DNA from: Nitrospinae bacterium RIFCSPHIGHO2_02_FULL_39_82
Lineage (GTDB): Bacteria > Nitrospinota > Nitrospinia > UBA9942
NCBI GenBank assembly: GCA_001804915.1
Contig: MHDI01000083.1
Coordinates: forward strand, 1 to 54,146
Direction: 5' to 3'
Length of the DNA stretch: 54,146 bases
Under the pieces are notes generated by a model that saw only the letters and a list, made by a program, of their open reading frames with translations, did not search any database and was not told where the DNA came from. Shown in pieces: positions 48,695-52,767 of this stretch. The stretch's first letter is position 1; every line of letters starts with the position of its first letter. A program made the translations under genes and the position numbers.

Positions 48695-48710
48695 TGGCAC
48701 ATCTCTTGCT
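48695..48710 (+). promoter_or_regulatory. sigma-54 (-24/-12) promoter candidate upstream of amt
   Basis: TGGCAC (48695-48700), N5 (atctc), TTGCT (48706-48710), which is an exact match to the TGGCAC-N5-TTGCW consensus. Lies immediately upstream of the ATG at 48724. Confidence 0.5.
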
Positions 48711-48723
48711 GAGTAATCAGAAC

Positions 48724-50037
48724 ATGAAGACAATTGTCAGGTTTTTGCTTGTATTTTATTTTTTATCTCTCTTCTTCAGTCCCAATGTATATGCTGAGAG
48801 AATTATTACCTCTGAAGATGTTCAGATTAATCTTGATATTGTCTGGATATGCATTGCCACAGTCCTTGTCTTTTTTATGAAGGCAGGATTTATCATGGTG
48901 GAGATTGGCTTTACAAGGGGAAAGAGTGCTGTTAACGCCATCATGAAAAATATGATGGACTTTGCAGTTAGTGCCATTGTCTTCTGGGCAGTAGGTTTTG
49001 GAATTATGTTTGGGACATCCAATGGACTCTTTGGCACTGACGGTTTCTTTTTGCATGACTATGCCGATTCCCGTGACCCATGGCTCTTTGCCTTCTGGAT
49101 GTATCAACTGGTCTTTGTATCTTCCACAGCAGCCATAGTATCAGGTGCAATGGCAGAGAGGACGAGATTTCCTGCATCCCTGATGTTTACAGTGTTTATG
49201 TCTGCCTTTATATATCCAATGTTTGGAAGCTGGGTCTGGGGGAGTTTCTACCATGGAGAGGGGTGGCTTGAGAAACTCGGGTTTACAGACTTTGCTGGTT
49301 CAACAGTTATTCATGCCATTGGAGGTTGGGCGGGACTGGCAGGGACTATAGTTCTTGGTCCCCGTATGGGGAAATTCAAAAAAGATGGAACTATCAATCC
49401 CATATTAGGTCATAATCTCCCGCTGGCTGCCCTCGGAACATTGATTCTATGGTTTGGATGGTATGGTTTTAATGCCGGCAACACCCTTGAAGGTGGAAGT
49501 AAGATTGCCCAGATTATGATAAATACCACCTTATCCGGTTCAGCAGCAGCCATATCCGGAATGGTCACCGCATGGTTTAAGTTTGGCAAACCCGATGTCG
49601 GAATGACACTCAACGGCGCCCTTTCAGGTCTGGTTGCAATTACTGCAGGCTGCGCCCATGTAGAGCCTTTATGGGCAGTAATTATAGGTATAGCTGCAGG
49701 GATAATTGTAGTCTTCTCAGTTATTCAATTTGACAAATTAAAGATAGATGACCCTGTTGGTGCAGTATCTGTGCATGGTGTCTGCGGGGTATGGGGGACG
49801 GTTGCCCTCGGAATATTTAAGACAGGTGAGATGTTCAGCATTAAGAATATCGGTATTCAAATCCTCGGCAGCGGAATTGCATTCTTATGGTCATTCTTTG
49901 TGTCCTATGGGATTTTCAGTTTAATCAAAAAGGCAATCGGACTAAGGGTGTCAGAGGAGGAGGAATATCAGGGGCTTGACTATTCAGAGCATACTGCAAC
50001 TGCATACCCTGATTTCCAGATTACGAATATAAAGTAA
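48724..50037 (+). CDS. amt: ammonium transporter (Amt/MEP family)
   Basis: Signal peptide MKTIVRFLLVF ... NVYA and 11 TM helices with Amt signatures (DFAGSTVIHAIGGWAGLAG, WFGWYGFNAG). The ORF track starts at 48694, but that extension overlaps the sigma-54 motif. Confidence 0.85.
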   Translation: MKTIVRFLLVFYFLSLFFSPNVYAERIITSEDVQINLDIVWICIATVLVFFMKAGFIMVEIGFTRGKSAVNAIMKNMMDFAVSAIVFWAVGFGIMFGTSNGLFGTDGFFLHDYADSRDPWLFAFWMYQLVFVSSTAAIVSGAMAERTRFPASLMFTVFMSAFIYPMFGSWVWGSFYHGEGWLEKLGFTDFAGSTVIHAIGGWAGLAGTIVLGPRMGKFKKDGTINPILGHNLPLAALGTLILWFGWYGFNAGNTLEGGSKIAQIMINTTLSGSAAAISGMVTAWFKFGKPDVGMTLNGALSGLVAITAGCAHVEPLWAVIIGIAAGIIVVFSVIQFDKLKIDDPVGAVSVHGVCGVWGTVALGIFKTGEMFSIKNIGIQILGSGIAFLWSFFVSYGIFSLIKKAIGLRVSEEEEYQGLDYSEHTATAYPDFQITNIK

Positions 50038-50102
50038 CAAGTTATCAAGTTTATAAAGTAAAAAGTTATTTAACTTTAAACTTTACGAACTTTAAAAACT
50101 TT

Positions 50103-50654
50103 ATGAACTTTAAAAACTCAGGATTAAACATAGATGAAGGGTTCAGAAGGAGGGTGCCAAGTAAGGGACAGATAATTGTTATCGTCTTTTTGACAGCGGC
50201 AGGGCTATCAATATTCTATGGGTTCTCAACCTTGTCATTTCACTATTCATCCACTAATAAATTCTGTTCTTCACAATGCCACGAGATGGTTGAACCATAT
50301 CAACAGTATCTCAAATCAAGTCATTATGACAGTAGTAGAGGGGTAGTGGCTGATTGTGCTGACTGCCATCTCCCGCCGGGGGAGGTCAATAAGTGGTATG
50401 CAAAGGTCCGTCAGGGTGTAAAGGATACGATAATGCATCTTCTCTTGAAATCTGAAGATATGAATCATCAAAGGTGGAAGATGCTGGCAGTAAAAAATAT
50501 AAGGTCAGAATCATGTGAGAGGTGTCATAAAAACCTTTTTCCCTCTGAGCTTCATAGGGGCGGGCTTTTAGCACATAAGGCATTTAAAAGGGGAGAGGTA
50601 AAGAGCTGCCTCAACTGTCATGTGAATCTGGTTCATGTAACGAGGGAGAGCTGA
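50103..50654 (+). CDS. NapC/NirT/NrfH-family membrane-anchored tetrahaem cytochrome c
   Basis: N-terminal TM anchor and four CxxCH motifs (CSSQCH, CADCH, CERCH, CLNCH). 183 aa. Confidence 0.75.
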   Translation: MNFKNSGLNIDEGFRRRVPSKGQIIVIVFLTAAGLSIFYGFSTLSFHYSSTNKFCSSQCHEMVEPYQQYLKSSHYDSSRGVVADCADCHLPPGEVNKWYAKVRQGVKDTIMHLLLKSEDMNHQRWKMLAVKNIRSESCERCHKNLFPSELHRGGLLAHKAFKRGEVKSCLNCHVNLVHVTRES

Positions 50655-51922
50655 TGAATACAGAAGTCAAAAGTCAGAAGATAAAAGTCAAAATATTTTT
50701 ATTCTGTCTTCTGTTCTCTGTCCTCTGTCATCTTGCTTTTTCCAACAATGTCTTTGCAATAAAAAAGACACGGGAAGAAATAGATACGGCAAAGAGGTGT
50801 GTCCTCTGTCATACCCAGATAAGTCCCGGAATTATCAATGACTGGGAGAGGAGTAATCATGCAAAGGCTTTGGTTACATGTATAGACTGCCATCAGGCAG
50901 ATATTACCGATACCGATGCAAAAAAACATGAAGGAATGATTATCTCTGCTATTGTAAGTCCAAAGGACTGCTCAAGATGTCATCCAAAACAGGTTATGGA
51001 GTTTAACGAATCCCTCCATTCAAAGGCTGTATCCTTTGTCCAGAATCTGGAGGGGGATAGGGCAGGTGATGACACATTGGCTTATAAGATAGAGGGGAAG
51101 GCAGCAGCAGTGATGGGTTGTGAGAAATGTCATGGGACAATAGTCAAAGTAAAAAATGGTATATTTGATAAAGATACATGGCCCAATACAGGAATAGGAA
51201 GGGTTAATCCCGATGGGAGCAAAGGGGCATGCACCACCTGTCACACAAGACATCTCTTTTCAATTGCAGAGGCAAGGACACCAGAAGCATGCGGGACTTG
51301 CCACATGGGTCCAGACCATCCACAGTATGAAATATACATGGAGTCAAAGCATGGTGTGATATACAGTTCTGAAAAACAGAAGTGGAATATGGATGTTGCT
51401 TCATCATCATGGGATACAAGATATTTCAGGGCGCCGACCTGTGCGATATGCCATATGTCTGGGATTGGCGGGCTTGAGCCGACTCATAATGTAAGTGACA
51501 GGCTTTCATGGGAGTTGGAATGGCCTATGTCCGAGAGGACAAACGACTGGAAGGGAAAAAGAGAAAAGATGCAAATGGCATGTCTCTCATGTCATTCAAA
51601 AAATTGGGTTGAGGGGTATTATCAGCAATTTGACAATGCAATTACCCTTTACAATGAGGAATATTATAAACCTATAAAAAAGGAGATGGATGAGCTTTAC
51701 AAACTGGGTTATCTGACAAAAGATAAATTTGACGAGGAGATAGAGTTCAAGTTCTTTGAATACTGGCATCATGAAGGGAGGAGGGCAAGGATGGGTGCAT
51801 CCATGATGGGGCCGGATTATACCCAGTGGCACGGTTTTTACAAACTGGCAAGGAACAGGCTGGAATTAAAGAGGATGATTAAGGAGATAAGGGAGAGGAA
51901 GGAAGCGAAAAGGGAAGAATGA
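50654..51922 (+). CDS. octahaem c-type cytochrome (Hao/ONR-like multihaem family)
   Basis: Signal peptide and eight CxxCH motifs (CVLCH, CIDCH, CSRCH, CEKCH, CTTCH, CGTCH, CAICH, CLSCH), with no CxxCK. Start overlaps the stop of the NrfH-like gene. Confidence 0.7.
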   Translation: MNTEVKSQKIKVKIFLFCLLFSVLCHLAFSNNVFAIKKTREEIDTAKRCVLCHTQISPGIINDWERSNHAKALVTCIDCHQADITDTDAKKHEGMIISAIVSPKDCSRCHPKQVMEFNESLHSKAVSFVQNLEGDRAGDDTLAYKIEGKAAAVMGCEKCHGTIVKVKNGIFDKDTWPNTGIGRVNPDGSKGACTTCHTRHLFSIAEARTPEACGTCHMGPDHPQYEIYMESKHGVIYSSEKQKWNMDVASSSWDTRYFRAPTCAICHMSGIGGLEPTHNVSDRLSWELEWPMSERTNDWKGKREKMQMACLSCHSKNWVEGYYQQFDNAITLYNEEYYKPIKKEMDELYKLGYLTKDKFDEEIEFKFFEYWHHEGRRARMGASMMGPDYTQWHGFYKLARNRLELKRMIKEIRERKEAKREE

Positions 51923-52767
51923 AGAAGCCGGAAGATAGAAGTCAGAAGACAGAAGTCAGAATAAAAACTTTTGGTTTCTTGCTTCTTGCCTCTTGCCTCT
52001 TACTTCTCACATTTTACTGGAACAAGCGGGGTGAGGATACCTCTGCAATATCCAGTGGTAAGTCTAATGAAATGCCATACAAGGAAATGGCAGAGATTCC
52101 GGCAGGCTTATTTATCATGGGTAGTAAGGATGGCGAGTTTGACGAGAGACCTCTGCATAATGTGGAACTGGATAGTTTTTATATGGATAGATATGAAGTG
52201 ACAAATCTTCAATATCAGAATTTTATATCTGCCAATCCTCACTGGCAGAAGGGGAAACCAAAATTAGATGAGGCGGATGGAAATTATTTAAAGGATTGGA
52301 ATGGGGCTGAATTTTTAGAGGGGAAAGAGAACTACCCTGTGGTTTATATAAGCTGGTATGCTGCCAGTGCTTATTGTAAGTGGGCTGAGAAATCTCTACC
52401 CACAGAGCCGCAGTGGGAGTATGCTGCCAGAGGGAGCTATGAAGGTATGAAATATGTGTGGGGGAATTTTTTTGAGTCTCATCTGATTAACAATAAGGGG
52501 ATAATGCCGGTGGATAGCCATAGTATAAATGGCTTCGGACTCAATGGTATGGCAGGAAATGTGTGGGAATGGACTGCAGATGGATATGAATTGTATATGG
52601 AATGGGTAGAGAGGAATCCGACACCGAGATTAAACAATCATCTTAAGGTAATCAGGGGCGGTTCATGGAAAAGCGGTATGGATGACCTGAGGGTATCTAT
52701 TCGTAGAACAGAAAGACCCAATGCCTGCAGGGGGGATTTAGGGTTTAGGTGCATAAACAAGCAATGA
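51919..52767 (+). CDS. FGE-sulfatase (SUMF1/NirV-like) domain protein, membrane-anchored
   Basis: N-terminal TM (FGFLLLASCLLLLTFYW). FGE domain with the C-terminal signature RGGSW ... GFRC. 4-bp overlap with the octahaem gene. Confidence 0.72.
   Translation: MKKPEDRSQKTEVRIKTFGFLLLASCLLLLTFYWNKRGEDTSAISSGKSNEMPYKEMAEIPAGLFIMGSKDGEFDERPLHNVELDSFYMDRYEVTNLQYQNFISANPHWQKGKPKLDEADGNYLKDWNGAEFLEGKENYPVVYISWYAASAYCKWAEKSLPTEPQWEYAARGSYEGMKYVWGNFFESHLINNKGIMPVDSHSINGFGLNGMAGNVWEWTADGYELYMEWVERNPTPRLNNHLKVIRGGSWKSGMDDLRVSIRRTERPNACRGDLGFRCINKQ

What the first reader, a model, noticed from the sequence alone, without database searches (positions are those of the whole stretch)
48695..52767. amt - NrfH-like - octahaem cytochrome - FGE/NirV-like cluster, a candidate reverse-Hao-type nitrite/hydroxylamine-to-ammonium module under a sigma-54 promoter
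An exact TGGCAC-N5-TTGCT sigma-54 motif sits immediately upstream of the ammonium transporter. The amtB of many bacteria is NtrC/sigma-54 controlled. Directly downstream is a NapC/NrfH-type tetrahaem quinol dehydrogenase, translationally coupled to an octahaem cytochrome that has eight CxxCH motifs and no CxxCK. The missing CxxCK argues against NrfA/ONR-type proteins and favours a Hao-like family. That gene is coupled in turn to a membrane-anchored FGE-domain protein. NapC/NrfH plus Hao-like pairs have been proposed to mediate nitrite ammonification via hydroxylamine in Campylobacterota. FGE-domain proteins (NirV) recur next to nitrite reductase genes. At 422 aa the octahaem protein is shorter than typical Hao, so it may be a distinct family. 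Alternatives are tetrathionate or sulfite reduction (Otr/MccA-like).
Basis: partly seen in the sequence, partly recalled or inferred. Interest (0 to 1): 0.62.

Follow-up and report, generated by a model that had tools for sequence, protein, structure and literature searches.

The report
Ammonium transporter with nitrite-reducing cytochrome operon
An uncultured groundwater bacterium carries a five-gene operon, apparently switched on by nitrogen starvation, that pairs an ammonium importer with a membrane-fed eight-haem cytochrome of the "reverse hydroxylamine oxidoreductase" type. It most likely turns nitrite into ammonium outside the cell membrane and takes it up, a known kind of chemistry in a conserved gene arrangement I found no description of.

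Summary
A unique sigma-54 -24/-12 element (48695-48710) precedes amt (48724-50037). Then come a NapC/NrfH-type tetrahaem gene (50103-50654), an octahaem gene (50654-51922, TGATG overlap) and an FGE-fold gene (51919-52767, ATGA overlap). An SPFH gene (52892-54142) also belongs.

The octahaem protein is a HAO-family member (PF13447). It has eight CxxCH motifs and no CxxCK. It carries the epsilon-Hao signature: Trp392 at the position of the cross-link Tyr, and Met384 eight residues before. It does not match Otr or MccA.

The order amt-NrfH-like-Hao recurs in about 20 contigs from Nitrospinota, Nitrospirota and Planctomycetota MAGs. FGE-like and SPFH genes follow in the closer subclade. The module usually sits beside porin, glnK, amt and glnA genes. 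The sigma-54 element is kept upstream in at least 12 independent loci of about 15 with readable upstream DNA. A TGCYTAA-N3-TTARGCA palindrome accompanies it in several.

The FGE-like protein lacks the catalytic Cys pair, so it is not a formylglycine-generating enzyme.

Best reading: a nitrogen-limitation-induced, quinol-driven periplasmic nitrite/hydroxylamine-to-ammonium reductase coupled to Amt uptake. That makes it a new variant of the known reverse-Hao kind. Function is inferred, not shown.

The parts
48444..48492 (.). Two near-palindromes of the form TGC-N11-GCA: TGCCTAAACATTAAGCA (48444-48460) and TGTTTAATCCTTAAGCA (48476-48492). They are candidate binding sites (UAS) for an NtrC-type enhancer-binding protein.
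   Evidence: Only 4 such near-palindromes occur in the 54-kb window, and 2 of them are here. The same TGCYTAA-N3-TTARGCA palindrome lies 65-100 nt upstream of the sigma-54 element in L002, L003, L004, L005, L009 and L024. The binding protein is unknown.
48527..48668 (.). A MITE/REP-like repeated element of about 140 nt with imperfect 54-nt inverted ends (core GAAAAATGACATTTTTC). It is inserted between the UAS and the promoter.
   Evidence: Inverted repeat found. A second copy lies at 41880-42065 (-), with fragments elsewhere in the window and in L004. It is absent from this position in relatives, where the UAS lies 65-100 nt from the promoter.
48695..48710 (+). Sigma-54 (-24/-12) promoter element TGGCAC-N5-TTGCT. 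GG is at 48696-48697 and GC at 48708-48709.
   Evidence: Unique in the window, with 0 matches in 100 shuffles. A YGGCAY-N5-TTGCW element is conserved upstream of amt (or of the first gene of the operon) in L002, L003, L004, L005, L007, L009, L010, L012, L015/L016, L019, L023 and L024. The relaxed motif occurs at a background of 0.1 per kb counting both strands.
48724..50037 (+). Ammonium transporter (Amt family) with a signal peptide. It is a Hao-linked orthologue, distinct from the other Amt paralogues in related genomes.
   Evidence: Pfam and NCBIfam matches. It is 55-92% identical to the amt next to hao in relatives, against 33-51% for other amt copies in the same loci. Signature differences are GSWVWG and FGWYGFNAGN; the twin histidines are kept.
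50103..50654 (+). Membrane-anchored NapC/NrfH-type tetrahaem cytochrome c, the presumed quinol dehydrogenase. Its first haem motif is CX3CH followed by xM (CSSQCHEM).
   Evidence: Pfam Cytochrom_NNT, E 3e-29. It scores below the NrfH, NapC and TorC equivalog cutoffs. It is always adjacent to hao in the clade.
50654..51922 (+). Periplasmic octahaem cytochrome c of the HAO family. It is the Tyr-less (reductive, epsilon-Hao-like) type and the presumed catalytic subunit.
   Evidence: Searches place it in the family. Eight CxxCH and no CxxCK. W392 is invariant and M384 nearly so. NeHAO ...PGGWT[Y]TEG aligns with epsilon-Hao ...PDYAHW-HG, which corresponds to the window's MMGPDYTQWHG. The Asp221-His222 pair aligns with the D-H of NeHAO CHSGVDHNNW.
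51919..52767 (+). Membrane-anchored FGE-fold (SUMF1/PvdO/GldK-like) protein without the FGE catalytic cysteine pair. It is an accessory protein of unknown role.
   Evidence: Pfam FGE-sulfatase, E 4e-52. Human FGE GGSYMCHRSYCYRYRC aligns with GGSWKSGMDDLRVSIR. Five of the homologues of at least 48% identity could be traced to contigs (by direct look-up or matching contig lengths), and every one lies next to hao. A 46% homologue does not.
52759..52872 (+). Long intergenic stem-loop built from (CAATGAG)n heptad repeats. It has no T-run after the stem.
   Evidence: RNA fold of -41.2 kcal/mol, z = -4.7, with 0 of 200 shuffles as stable. The same repeat sequence is found at intergenic sites in L001, L002, L023 and L024.
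52892..54142 (+). SPFH/Band_7 membrane-scaffold protein with an N-terminal TM segment and a long coiled-coil tail. It is the fifth gene of the conserved module.
   Evidence: Pfam Band_7, E 3e-10. It follows the FGE-like gene in L001, L002, L003, L005, L006, L012, L013, L015/L016, L019, L023 and L024.

Best explanation
This is a nitrogen-limitation-induced operon for assimilating nitrite, and probably also hydroxylamine or NO, outside the cytoplasm.

Proposed steps:
1. An NtrC-type activator bound at the TGC-N11-GCA palindromes fires the sigma-54 promoter. This transcribes amt, the NrfH-like gene, hao, the FGE-like gene and the SPFH gene.
2. The membrane-anchored NapC/NrfH-type tetrahaem cytochrome oxidises menaquinol and passes electrons to the periplasmic Tyr-less octahaem Hao.
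3. Hao reduces nitrite (6 e-) or hydroxylamine (2 e-) to ammonium at its five-coordinate haem 4.
4. The co-expressed dedicated Amt imports the ammonium for GS/GOGAT. In relatives, glnK, a second amt and glnA lie next door.
5. The FGE-fold protein (not an FGE enzyme) and the SPFH protein are accessory membrane proteins. Most likely they act as a scaffold holding the cytochromes near Amt.

Shown here: gene identities, overlaps, family placement, the Trp-for-Tyr signature, conservation of the module and of the promoter, and the nitrogen-assimilation neighbourhood.

Inferred: regulation by nitrogen status, substrate and product, electron donor, and the role of the accessory proteins.
For: Family and active site:
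- HAO family match.
- Eight CxxCH and no CxxCK.
- W392 and M384 match the epsilon-Hao signature.
- Tyr-less Hao enzymes reduce nitrite and hydroxylamine and barely oxidise hydroxylamine (Haase 2017 as summarised in PMC8042395).
- IhOCC is the closest solved relative.

Electron donor:
- A NapC/NirT-family tetrahaem protein with a TM anchor is encoded by a gene that overlaps hao.

Context:
- amt-NNT-hao is present in every locus of the clade that has upstream DNA. These are L002-L010, L012, L013, L015/16, L019, L020, L023 and L024.
- glnK, amt, glnA and porin genes are adjacent.
- Sigma-54-dependent response regulators lie in L004, L008 and L013.
- An RR-ANTAR regulator plus a leader hairpin lies in L019.

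Promoter:
- Unique in the window and conserved across three phyla.
- A conserved palindrome lies upstream.

Phylogeny:
- The amt-linked Hao proteins form one clade, sister to the Rieske/cyt b-linked clade.

Precedent:
- The Nitrospira octahaem 'ONR/OCC' sits in a glnA-amtB-glnK cluster, is expressed with nitrite as the sole N source, and has a NapC partner in lineage IV.
- haoA and cycB of Nautilia are induced on nitrate and repressed by ammonium.
Against: - No experiment exists for any member of this clade, and the organisms are uncultured.
- The reaction product could be NH2OH or NO rather than NH4+. Kustc0458, which also lacks the Tyr, makes NO.
- A sigma-54 promoter does not by itself prove NtrC or nitrogen control. 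The palindrome differs from the enteric NtrC site, and its binding protein is unknown.
- With the usual spacing, transcription would start about 3 nt before the ATG. That is unusual and untested.
- L013 and L020 lack a recognisable sigma-54 element within 600 nt.
- NrfH-type quinol oxidation is typical of respiratory rather than assimilatory systems.
- The roles of the FGE-like and SPFH proteins are guesses.
Confidence: 0.6

Rival explanations
1. Reverse-HURM with a free hydroxylamine intermediate. Hao reduces nitrite only as far as hydroxylamine, the dedicated Amt imports NH2OH, and a cytoplasmic hybrid-cluster protein (Hcp) reduces it to ammonium.
For: - This is the model proposed for Nautilia profundicola, including AmtB as the hydroxylamine channel.
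- The Hao-linked Amt is a separate orthologue. It has changes near the external binding site, at positions I map from memory of E. coli AmtB onto F213Y and S219N, plus His to Ser before the W148 equivalent.
- An hcp (Prismane) gene lies about 1.7 kb upstream, divergently oriented, in L013.
- Hao plus Hcp has also been proposed in Deferribacter.
Against: - Recombinant epsilon-Hao enzymes are counted among ammonium-forming nitrite reductases.
- hcp is absent from the 7-10 kb flanks of all other loci examined.
- The twin-His pore and the Phe gate of the Amt are intact.
- S219N is not shared by L008-L010.
Confidence: 0.12
2. A respiratory or detoxifying nitrite ammonification (DNRA) module. On this view it is an NrfHA analogue used for energy conservation or nitrite/NO detoxification, and the amt is only a neighbouring gene.
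For: - The NrfH-like quinol dehydrogenase partner is typical of respiratory NrfHA.
- Hao-dependent respiratory ammonification has been proposed in Campylobacterota and Deferribacteres.
- A related MAG, NC_41_11 (L001), encodes NapA.
Against: - amt is the first gene of the unit. It sits 65 nt upstream of the NrfH-like gene with no terminator between them, and it co-varies with hao across three phyla.
- The sigma-54 promoter and the glnK/glnA/porin neighbourhood point to nitrogen assimilation.
- No nap, nar or other respiratory genes lie in the flanks.
- The two roles are not mutually exclusive.
Confidence: 0.15
3. An NO-forming nitrite reductase, like the anammox HAOr (Kustc0458).
For: Kustc0458 also lacks the cross-link Tyr and makes NO from nitrite with a mild reductant. 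It is the second-best PDB hit with the profile search.
Against: - The window protein is closer to IhOCC (250 bits) than to Kustc0458 (149 bits).
- There is no dihaem Kustc0457-type partner.
- Co-transcription with an ammonium importer inside a nitrogen-assimilation cluster makes NO an implausible end product.
Confidence: 0.05
4. A sulfur-compound reductase (Otr- or MccA-like), or an oxidative hydroxylamine/hydrazine dehydrogenase.
For: Multihaem cytochromes are catalytically promiscuous.
Against: - No Otr or MccA chain appears among PDB sequence or fold hits. All significant hits are HAO-family proteins.
- The cross-link Tyr needed for oxidative HAO chemistry is replaced by Trp.
- No sulfur-metabolism or amo genes lie nearby.
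Confidence: 0.03

Closest known systems
Epsilonproteobacterial Hao (epsilon-Hao; Haase et al. 2017) and the reverse-HURM module of Nautilia profundicola (Campbell 2009; Hanson 2013)
   Same: - It is a periplasmic HAO-family octahaem with eight CxxCH motifs.
- It lacks the cross-link Tyr, with Trp at that position and Met eight residues before (WHHEGRR...M..PDY..WHG motif shared).
- It partners with a NapC/NrfH/cM552-type tetrahaem cytochrome.
- In Nautilia, expression responds to nitrogen source.
   Different: - In Nautilia, haoA, cycB and the amtB genes are dispersed (NAMH_1280, 0559, 0397, 0215). Here they form one overlapping operon headed by amt.
- The C-terminal tail differs.
- FGE-like and SPFH partners have not been reported for epsilon-Hao.
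- Full-length identity to epsilon-Hao could not be measured, because only C-terminal segments were available.
Nitrospira assimilatory octahaem cytochrome c ('ONR/OCC'; Koch 2015, Ushiki 2018, Mundinger 2019)
   Same: - An octahaem cytochrome sits in a glnA-amtB-glnK nitrogen-assimilation cluster.
- It is proposed to act as a periplasmic, quinol-linked assimilatory nitrite reductase followed by Amt uptake.
- Lineage IV genomes have a NapC gene next to it.
   Different: - Most Nitrospira have a Rieske/cytochrome b partner. The Rieske/cyt b-linked homologues found here (L022) form the sister clade at about 50% identity, with a longer C-terminus.
- I could not confirm which clade the Nitrospira proteins belong to.
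- No FGE-like or SPFH genes are described there.
IhOCC of Ignicoccus hospitalis (PDB 4qo5)
   Same: It is the best solved relative (phmmer E 6e-45; profile E 2.5e-73). It shares the HAO fold and has no cross-link Tyr, with Phe at the equivalent position.
   Different: IhOCC is 521 aa and archaeal, with only about 25% identity over the fold alignment. Its gene context is different.
NrfHA cytochrome c nitrite reductase
   Same: It has the same logic: a membrane NrfH-type quinol dehydrogenase plus a periplasmic multihaem nitrite-to-ammonium reductase.
   Different: The catalytic subunit here is octahaem with a His-ligated CxxCH active haem, not a pentahaem with CxxCK. NrfA matches only at about 1e-5. 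The small subunit scores 71 bits against the NrfH cutoff of 134.
NirV and other non-catalytic FGE-fold proteins (PvdO, PorK/GldK, SUMF2)
   Same: An FGE-sulfatase fold protein is encoded next to a nitrite reductase gene (NirV sits next to nirK). Like pFGE/SUMF2, PvdO and PorK, it lacks the FGE catalytic Cys pair.
   Different: It is linked to a haem enzyme rather than a copper enzyme. It forms its own subfamily, found only in this module. No direct comparison with a NirV sequence was possible.

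Membership tests
HAO family of octahaem cytochromes c (Pfam PF13447) | Eight c-type haem-binding motifs, and sequence or profile similarity above the curated threshold. 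| tested here: met
   Eight CxxCH motifs. PF13447 scores 119.5 bits against a cutoff of 21.9. PDB hits are HAO-family proteins only, at E 1e-20 to 1e-73. Foldseek returns HAO-family chains only.
HAO family of octahaem cytochromes c (Pfam PF13447) | A catalytic distal Asp-His pair after haem motif 6 (NeHAO CHSGVDH). The residue roles come from my own knowledge of the NeHAO structure. | tested here: met
   The window's CHMGPDHP aligns with NeHAO CHSGVDHN. D221 and H222 are invariant in 31 homologues.
Reductive, Tyr-less Hao (epsilon-Hao type) | Absence of the haem-cross-linking Tyr (NeHAO Tyr467/491). Trp stands at that position, with a conserved Met eight residues upstream. | tested here: met
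   The published alignment shows NeHAO HVN-PGGWT[Y]TEGW against epsilon-Hao MGS-PDYAHW-HGVF (criterion quoted). The window reads MMGPDYTQWHGFY. W392 is invariant and M384 at least 90% conserved. The mapping goes through the shared motif, not through a direct alignment to NeHAO, because HMMER's local alignment stops at residue 358.
Reductive, Tyr-less Hao (epsilon-Hao type) | A partner NapC/NrfH/cM552-type tetrahaem quinol dehydrogenase. | tested here: met
   The adjacent gene overlaps hao and matches Cytochrom_NNT at E 3e-29.
Reductive, Tyr-less Hao (epsilon-Hao type) | Nitrite and hydroxylamine reduction to ammonium, with negligible hydroxylamine oxidation. | not testable with these tools
   This needs purified protein. 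Literature values exist only for four Campylobacterota enzymes.
Reductive, Tyr-less Hao (epsilon-Hao type) | Phylogenetic placement with the Campylobacterota epsilon-Hao sequences. | tested here: inconclusive
   Full reference sequences were not obtainable. Only C-terminal blocks could be compared, where about 19 of 28 residues are shared with C. fetus. The NJ tree contains no named epsilon-Hao.
NrfA / ONR (Thioalkalivibrio-type) nitrite reductases | CxxCK active-site haem motif with a Lys ligand. | tested here: not met
   No CxxCK motif. NrfA models score 17-19 bits against cutoffs of 595-692.
Otr / MccA octahaem reductases | Sequence or fold similarity to Otr or MccA. | tested here: not met
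   Neither appears in the PDB sequence searches at E <= 0.01 and <= 0.001, nor in Foldseek at E <= 10.
NrfH (TIGR03153) / NapC (TIGR02161) | Score above the equivalog or subfamily cutoff, and four CxxCH motifs. | tested here: not met
   71 bits against 134 (NrfH), and 62 against 311 (NapC). The first motif is CX3CH in this lineage. Membership of the broader NapC/NirT Pfam family is met.
Formylglycine-generating enzyme (FGE/SUMF1) | The catalytic, copper-binding Cys pair (human Cys336/Cys341). | tested here: not met
   Human GGSYMCHRSYCYRYRC aligns with GGSWKSGMDDLRVSIR, so both Cys are missing. The same holds in all 22 aligned relatives. Only the fold (PF03781) is shared.
Sigma-54-dependent promoter | GG and GC doublets exactly 10 bp apart within a TGGCAC-N5-TTGCW consensus, conserved in orthologous positions. 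| tested here: met
   Exact consensus, unique in the window. Conserved in at least 12 related loci.
Sigma-54-dependent promoter | Transcription start about 12 nt downstream of the GC, and dependence on RpoN and an enhancer-binding protein. | not testable with these tools
   This needs 5'-end mapping or transcriptomics. A candidate UAS palindrome is conserved, and sigma-54 activator genes lie in related loci.
Nitrospira-type assimilatory octahaem nitrite reductase locus | An octahaem gene embedded among glnA, glnK/PII and amtB. | tested here: met
   The window's contig ends 4 nt after the SPFH stop codon. In relatives the module is followed by porin-PII-amt-(amt)-glnA or preceded by glnA.
Nitrospira-type assimilatory octahaem nitrite reductase locus | A Rieske/cytochrome b partner. 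| tested here: not met
   The partner here is NapC/NrfH-type. The Rieske/cyt b arrangement occurs in the sister clade. Lineage IV Nitrospira reportedly use NapC.

The most novel reading that the evidence does not exclude
The five proteins form a dedicated membrane 'nitrite-capture' assembly. An SPFH microdomain and a non-catalytic FGE-fold anchor hold the NrfH-like/Hao reductase against a specialised Amt. Ammonium (or hydroxylamine) made in the periplasm is then channelled straight into the cell. This quinol-driven, haem-based route would be the hitherto missing assimilatory nitrite reductase of non-Nitrospinia Nitrospinota, which were reported to lack one. The same would apply to related Nitrospirota, Planctomycetota and marine lineages.
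Probability: 0.2. Interest if true: 0.7.

Novelty: new variant of a known kind. Interest (0 to 1): 0.45.

Why it matters
Tyr-less Hao genes are among the most abundant nitrogen-cycle genes in some metagenomes, yet their physiological role is unsettled. Respiration, detoxification, assimilation and a free hydroxylamine intermediate are all still on the table.

This clade gives a clear genomic answer for one lineage. The enzyme is hard-wired to an ammonium importer, to a sigma-54 promoter and to glnK/glnA. That argues for nitrogen assimilation.

It would also revise a published inference that groundwater Nitrospinota classes lack assimilatory nitrite reduction. The exact protein is deposited only as 'hypothetical protein'.

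The strictly co-inherited FGE-fold and SPFH partners are new candidate accessory factors for multihaem nitrite reductases.

Tried and rejected
- **Direct alignment to NeHAO.** A direct sequence alignment of the C-terminus to NeHAO, to locate the Tyr, failed with phmmer and hmmsearch. Their local alignments stop at query residue 358, and the C-terminal fragment alone hits only IhOCC at E 0.2. I solved this through the published Clustal alignment in the supplement of PMC8940962.
- **Structure model.** The AlphaFold2 model has a mean pLDDT of only 70 and is poor around haems 4-7. No haems are modelled. Foldseek TM-scores of about 0.4 confirm the family but were not used for residue mapping.
- **Koch 2015.** The paper on the Nitrospira OCC is not held. 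Whether the Nitrospira enzyme falls in the Rieske-linked sister clade therefore remains inferred.
- **Rfam scan.** A scan of 48000-54146 found only the tRNA. Hits to plant miRNA precursors are generic hairpin matches far below gathering scores. There is no glutamine riboswitch.
- **Terminator and sigma-70 scans.** They gave nothing above shuffle expectation.
- **Literature search.** No paper in the held library combines formylglycine/FGE with hydroxylamine oxidoreductase.
- **A faulty regular expression.** My first relaxed sigma-54 pattern had the wrong spacing and returned nothing. It was corrected.
- **The name 'HaoB'.** I considered and rejected it for the NrfH-like subunit, because haoB denotes an unrelated gene in ammonia oxidisers.
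- **Searches not run.** A homologue search for the SPFH and Amt proteins, and the 1.84-billion-representative search. The locus evidence already answered the question.

Full report
**What is there**

The last 5.7 kb of the window hold five co-oriented genes after a tRNA-Leu(UAA) at 48317-48405.

| Gene | Coordinates | Evidence |
|---|---|---|
| amt | ATG 48724 to 50037 | Pfam Ammonium_transp 9e-116; TIGR00836 above cutoff |
| NapC/NirT-family tetrahaem cytochrome, one TM helix | 50103-50654 | |
| Octahaem cytochrome, 422 aa, signal peptide | 50654-51922 | |
| FGE-sulfatase-fold protein, N-terminal hydrophobic anchor | 51919-52767 | |
| SPFH/Band_7 protein | 52892-54142 | |

- The stop and start codons overlap as TGATG and ATGA.
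- No terminator-like or sigma-70-like sites exceed shuffle expectation.
- The exact sigma-54 consensus TGGCACATCTCTTGCT at 48695-48710 is the only match in the window. None of 100 shuffles gave a match.
The first haem motif of the small cytochrome is CX3CH (CSSQCH), not CxxCH. The SPFH gene belongs to the unit.

**Source organism**

The window has 38.6% G+C. Its Hao protein is identical to GenBank entries annotated 'hypothetical protein' from Nitrospinae bacterium RIFCSPLOWO2_02_FULL_39_110 and sister Rifle-aquifer MAGs. The rest of the window is housekeeping: Tol/Exb genes, TPR proteins, a che cluster, aromatic amino-acid genes, addAB, dnaE, guaA and metVF.

**Family of the octahaem protein**

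- It matches Pfam PF13447 (2e-34). Its best NCBIfam hit is hydrazine dehydrogenase, far below cutoff.
- Among solved structures the order is IhOCC 4qo5 (6e-45; profile 2.5e-73), then Kustc0458, NeHAO, KsHAO and HDH. NrfA appears only near 1e-5. Otr and MccA do not appear.
- A moderate AlphaFold model (pLDDT 70) retrieves only HAO-family chains.
- It has eight CxxCH motifs and no CxxCK.
- The Asp-His pair after haem motif 6 is invariant.
- In an alignment of 31 homologues, W392 is invariant and M384 nearly so.
- The published alignment in the supplement of PMC8940962 places the NeHAO cross-link Tyr (HVN-PGGWT[Y]TEGW) opposite the Trp of epsilon-Hao (MGS-PDYAHW-HGVF). The window reads MMGPDYTQWHGFY. 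This is the Trp plus Met(-8) signature attributed to Haase et al. 2017.
- Tyr-less Hao enzymes reduce nitrite and hydroxylamine and do not oxidise hydroxylamine appreciably.
- A length of 422 aa is ordinary for this group. About 8000 database clusters match it, and the 120 best are mostly 396-475 aa apart from a few fragments.

**Conservation of the module**

- Twelve genome loci and fifteen contigs fetched through protein look-ups were compared.
- Every relative with at least 54% Hao identity that has upstream DNA shows amt, the NrfH-like gene, then hao. In L013 the small cytochrome was simply not called by the gene finder.
- Those at 63-92% identity also carry the FGE-like and SPFH genes. 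They include Nitrospirota (L012) and Planctomycetota (L015/L016) MAGs, and unassigned contigs (L013, L019, L023, L024).
- Below about 52% identity the linkage is gone. Homologues are stand-alone (L017, L026, L027), Rnf-adjacent (L021), or preceded by Rieske/cytochrome b genes (L022).
- In an NJ tree the amt-linked proteins form one clade, sister to the Rieske/cyt b-linked clade.
- The amt next to hao is a distinct orthologue. It is 55-92% identical across loci, against 33-51% for the other amt copies, and it has its own sequence signatures.
- Of the FGE-like homologues at or above 48% identity, the five I could trace to contigs all lie in this module. A 46% homologue lies elsewhere.

**Nitrogen context and regulation**

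- In relatives the module is followed by a second sigma-54 element, a porin, glnK (PII), one or two further amt genes and glnA.
- L019 has glnA, a porin and an RR-ANTAR regulator just upstream, with a terminator-like leader hairpin.
- L013 has a PAS histidine kinase and a sigma-54 activator directly downstream, and hcp upstream.
- L004 and L008 carry sigma-54-dependent response regulators.
- A YGGCAY-N5-TTGCW element precedes amt, or the first gene of a longer glnK-amt-amt-NrfH-hao operon, in L002-L005, L007, L009, L010, L012, L015/16, L019, L023 and L024. It is absent within 600 nt in L013 and L020 (L008 was not re-scanned).
- A relaxed version of the motif occurs only 0.1 times per kb over both strands.
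- A near-palindrome TGCYTAA-N3-TTARGCA, in the same TGC-N11-GCA frame as enteric NtrC sites (own knowledge), lies 65-100 nt upstream of the promoter in L002-L005, L009 and L024.
- In the window two such sites lie 219 and 251 nt upstream. The extra distance comes from a repeated element of about 140 nt with inverted ends. A second copy lies at 41880-42065.

**The accessory proteins**

The FGE-fold protein aligns with human and bacterial FGE but lacks both catalytic cysteines, as do all its relatives. It cannot be a formylglycine-generating enzyme. It resembles the non-catalytic FGE-fold proteins PvdO, PorK/GldK and SUMF2. With the SPFH protein, it is best viewed as a membrane scaffold or accessory factor. 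That view is inference only.

**Mechanism proposed**

1. Under nitrogen limitation, an NtrC-type activator and sigma-54 transcribe the operon.
2. The NrfH-like cytochrome takes electrons from menaquinol to periplasmic Hao.
3. Hao reduces nitrite, hydroxylamine or NO to ammonium.
4. Amt imports the ammonium for glutamine synthetase.

Confidence is about 0.6.

Rival readings:
- A free hydroxylamine intermediate imported by the specialised Amt, as in the Nautilia model. The hcp gene in L013 fits this.
- A respiratory or detoxifying role.
- NO formation, as in Kustc0458.
- Sulfur chemistry or oxidative chemistry, which the family placement and the missing Tyr argue against.

**Comparison with what is known**

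- The chemistry and the NrfH-type partner match epsilon-Hao and reverse-HURM.
- The embedding in a glnA-glnK-amt cluster matches the Nitrospira 'ONR/OCC'.
- Three things are new relative to the literature I could search. The first is the fixed five-gene operon headed by amt. The second is the sigma-54/UAS control. The third is the dedicated FGE-fold and SPFH partners. No paper in the held library links FGE with Hao.
- A comparative study of Nitrospinota does not mention hao. It states that the non-Nitrospinia classes, which include the MAG NC_41_11 (= L001), lack assimilatory nitrite reductases.

**Verdict**

This is a new variant of a known kind, of moderate interest. All functional statements remain computational inference.

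Noticed in passing
window 48527-48668 and 41880-42065 (-); fragments near 20512 and 21290; Y1 transposase gene 44410-45258 (-): A repeated element of about 140-175 nt, bounded by inverted ends (GAAAAATGACATTTTTC), occurs at least twice in the window and also in L004. One copy sits between the UAS palindromes and the sigma-54 promoter of amt. An IS200/Y1-transposase-like gene with an HTH tail lies 3 kb away. It could be the REP-associated (RAYT-type) enzyme that moves such elements.
   Followed up: partly
window 48709-48726: With the usual sigma-54 spacing (C of the GC doublet at -12), transcription would start near 48721. That is only about 3 nt before the amt ATG, and no Shine-Dalgarno sequence is present. 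The same 3-5 nt spacing is seen in L003, L004, L005 and L023. This suggests a conserved, nearly leaderless amt mRNA. No transcript data were available to check it.
   Followed up: partly
window 50265-50282 (residues 55-60 of the NrfH-like protein): The first haem-binding motif is CX3CH (CSSQCHEM). The variant is conserved in the Nitrospinota loci, in L007-L009 (CTVNCH) and in L019 (CSSKCH). Orthologues in L013, L015 and L020 have the canonical CxxCH. The difference is a one-residue insertion inside a haem attachment site, and it has been kept across diverged sequences.
   Followed up: partly
window 48724-50037 (Amt): The Hao-linked Amt differs systematically from paralogues near the external ammonium site. 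It reads GSWVWG where paralogues read xHWVWG, and FGWYGFNAGN where they read FGWFGFNAGS. It also has an inserted SFYHGEG loop. The twin histidines and the Phe gate are retained. The equivalents in E. coli AmtB numbering (F213Y, S219N) come from my memory of that protein.
   Followed up: partly
window 52759-52872: A very stable stem-loop (-41 kcal/mol, z -4.7) made of CAATGAG heptad repeats lies between the FGE-like and SPFH genes, with no T-run after it. Related repeat sequence occurs at intergenic sites in L001, L002, L023 and L024. It may act as an mRNA-stabilising or processing element, or it may be a genome-wide repeat family.
   Followed up: partly
window 50038-50113: The 65-nt AT-rich spacer between amt and the NrfH-like gene contains three overlapping copies of an 18-nt unit at 9-nt spacing (AACTTTAnn), extending into the first codons of the NrfH-like gene. 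It also holds a 27-nt imperfect inverted repeat. No obvious ribosome-binding site precedes the ATG at 50103.
   Followed up: no
window 46752-48279: A metV-metF pair (MTHFR C-terminal-domain protein plus MTHFR) has a 4-codon overlap. I believe this type is associated with acetogens and the Wood-Ljungdahl pathway, which would be unexpected for a phylum known for aerobic nitrite oxidisers. It lies directly upstream of the tRNA-Leu and the amt operon.
   Followed up: no
L019 4736-4973: In this relative (Hao 63% identical) a sigma-54-like element is followed by a GC-rich hairpin with a T-run in the amt leader. A response-regulator-ANTAR gene lies just upstream. This is the NasT-type antitermination layout known from nitrate/nitrite assimilation operons.
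   Followed up: partly
L015 6832-8175 and 11081-11635; L016 8281-9624: The planctomycete contigs carry a second Hao paralogue (447 aa) about 400 nt downstream of the SPFH gene. L015 additionally has a second NapC/NirT-type gene about 3 kb beyond it.
   Followed up: no
window 8083-8619 (-), 9189-10508 (+), 20703-21281 (+): Three sizeable ORFs (178, 439 and 192 aa) have no Pfam match at E <= 1e-4.
   Followed up: no
window 10993-20542 (-): A complete chemosensory cluster lies here. It comprises cheR-TPR, two cheW genes, an MCP, a cheA-cheW-REC hybrid and cheB. A REC-GGDEF response regulator follows, which suggests a Che-like pathway controlling c-di-GMP rather than motility.
   Followed up: no
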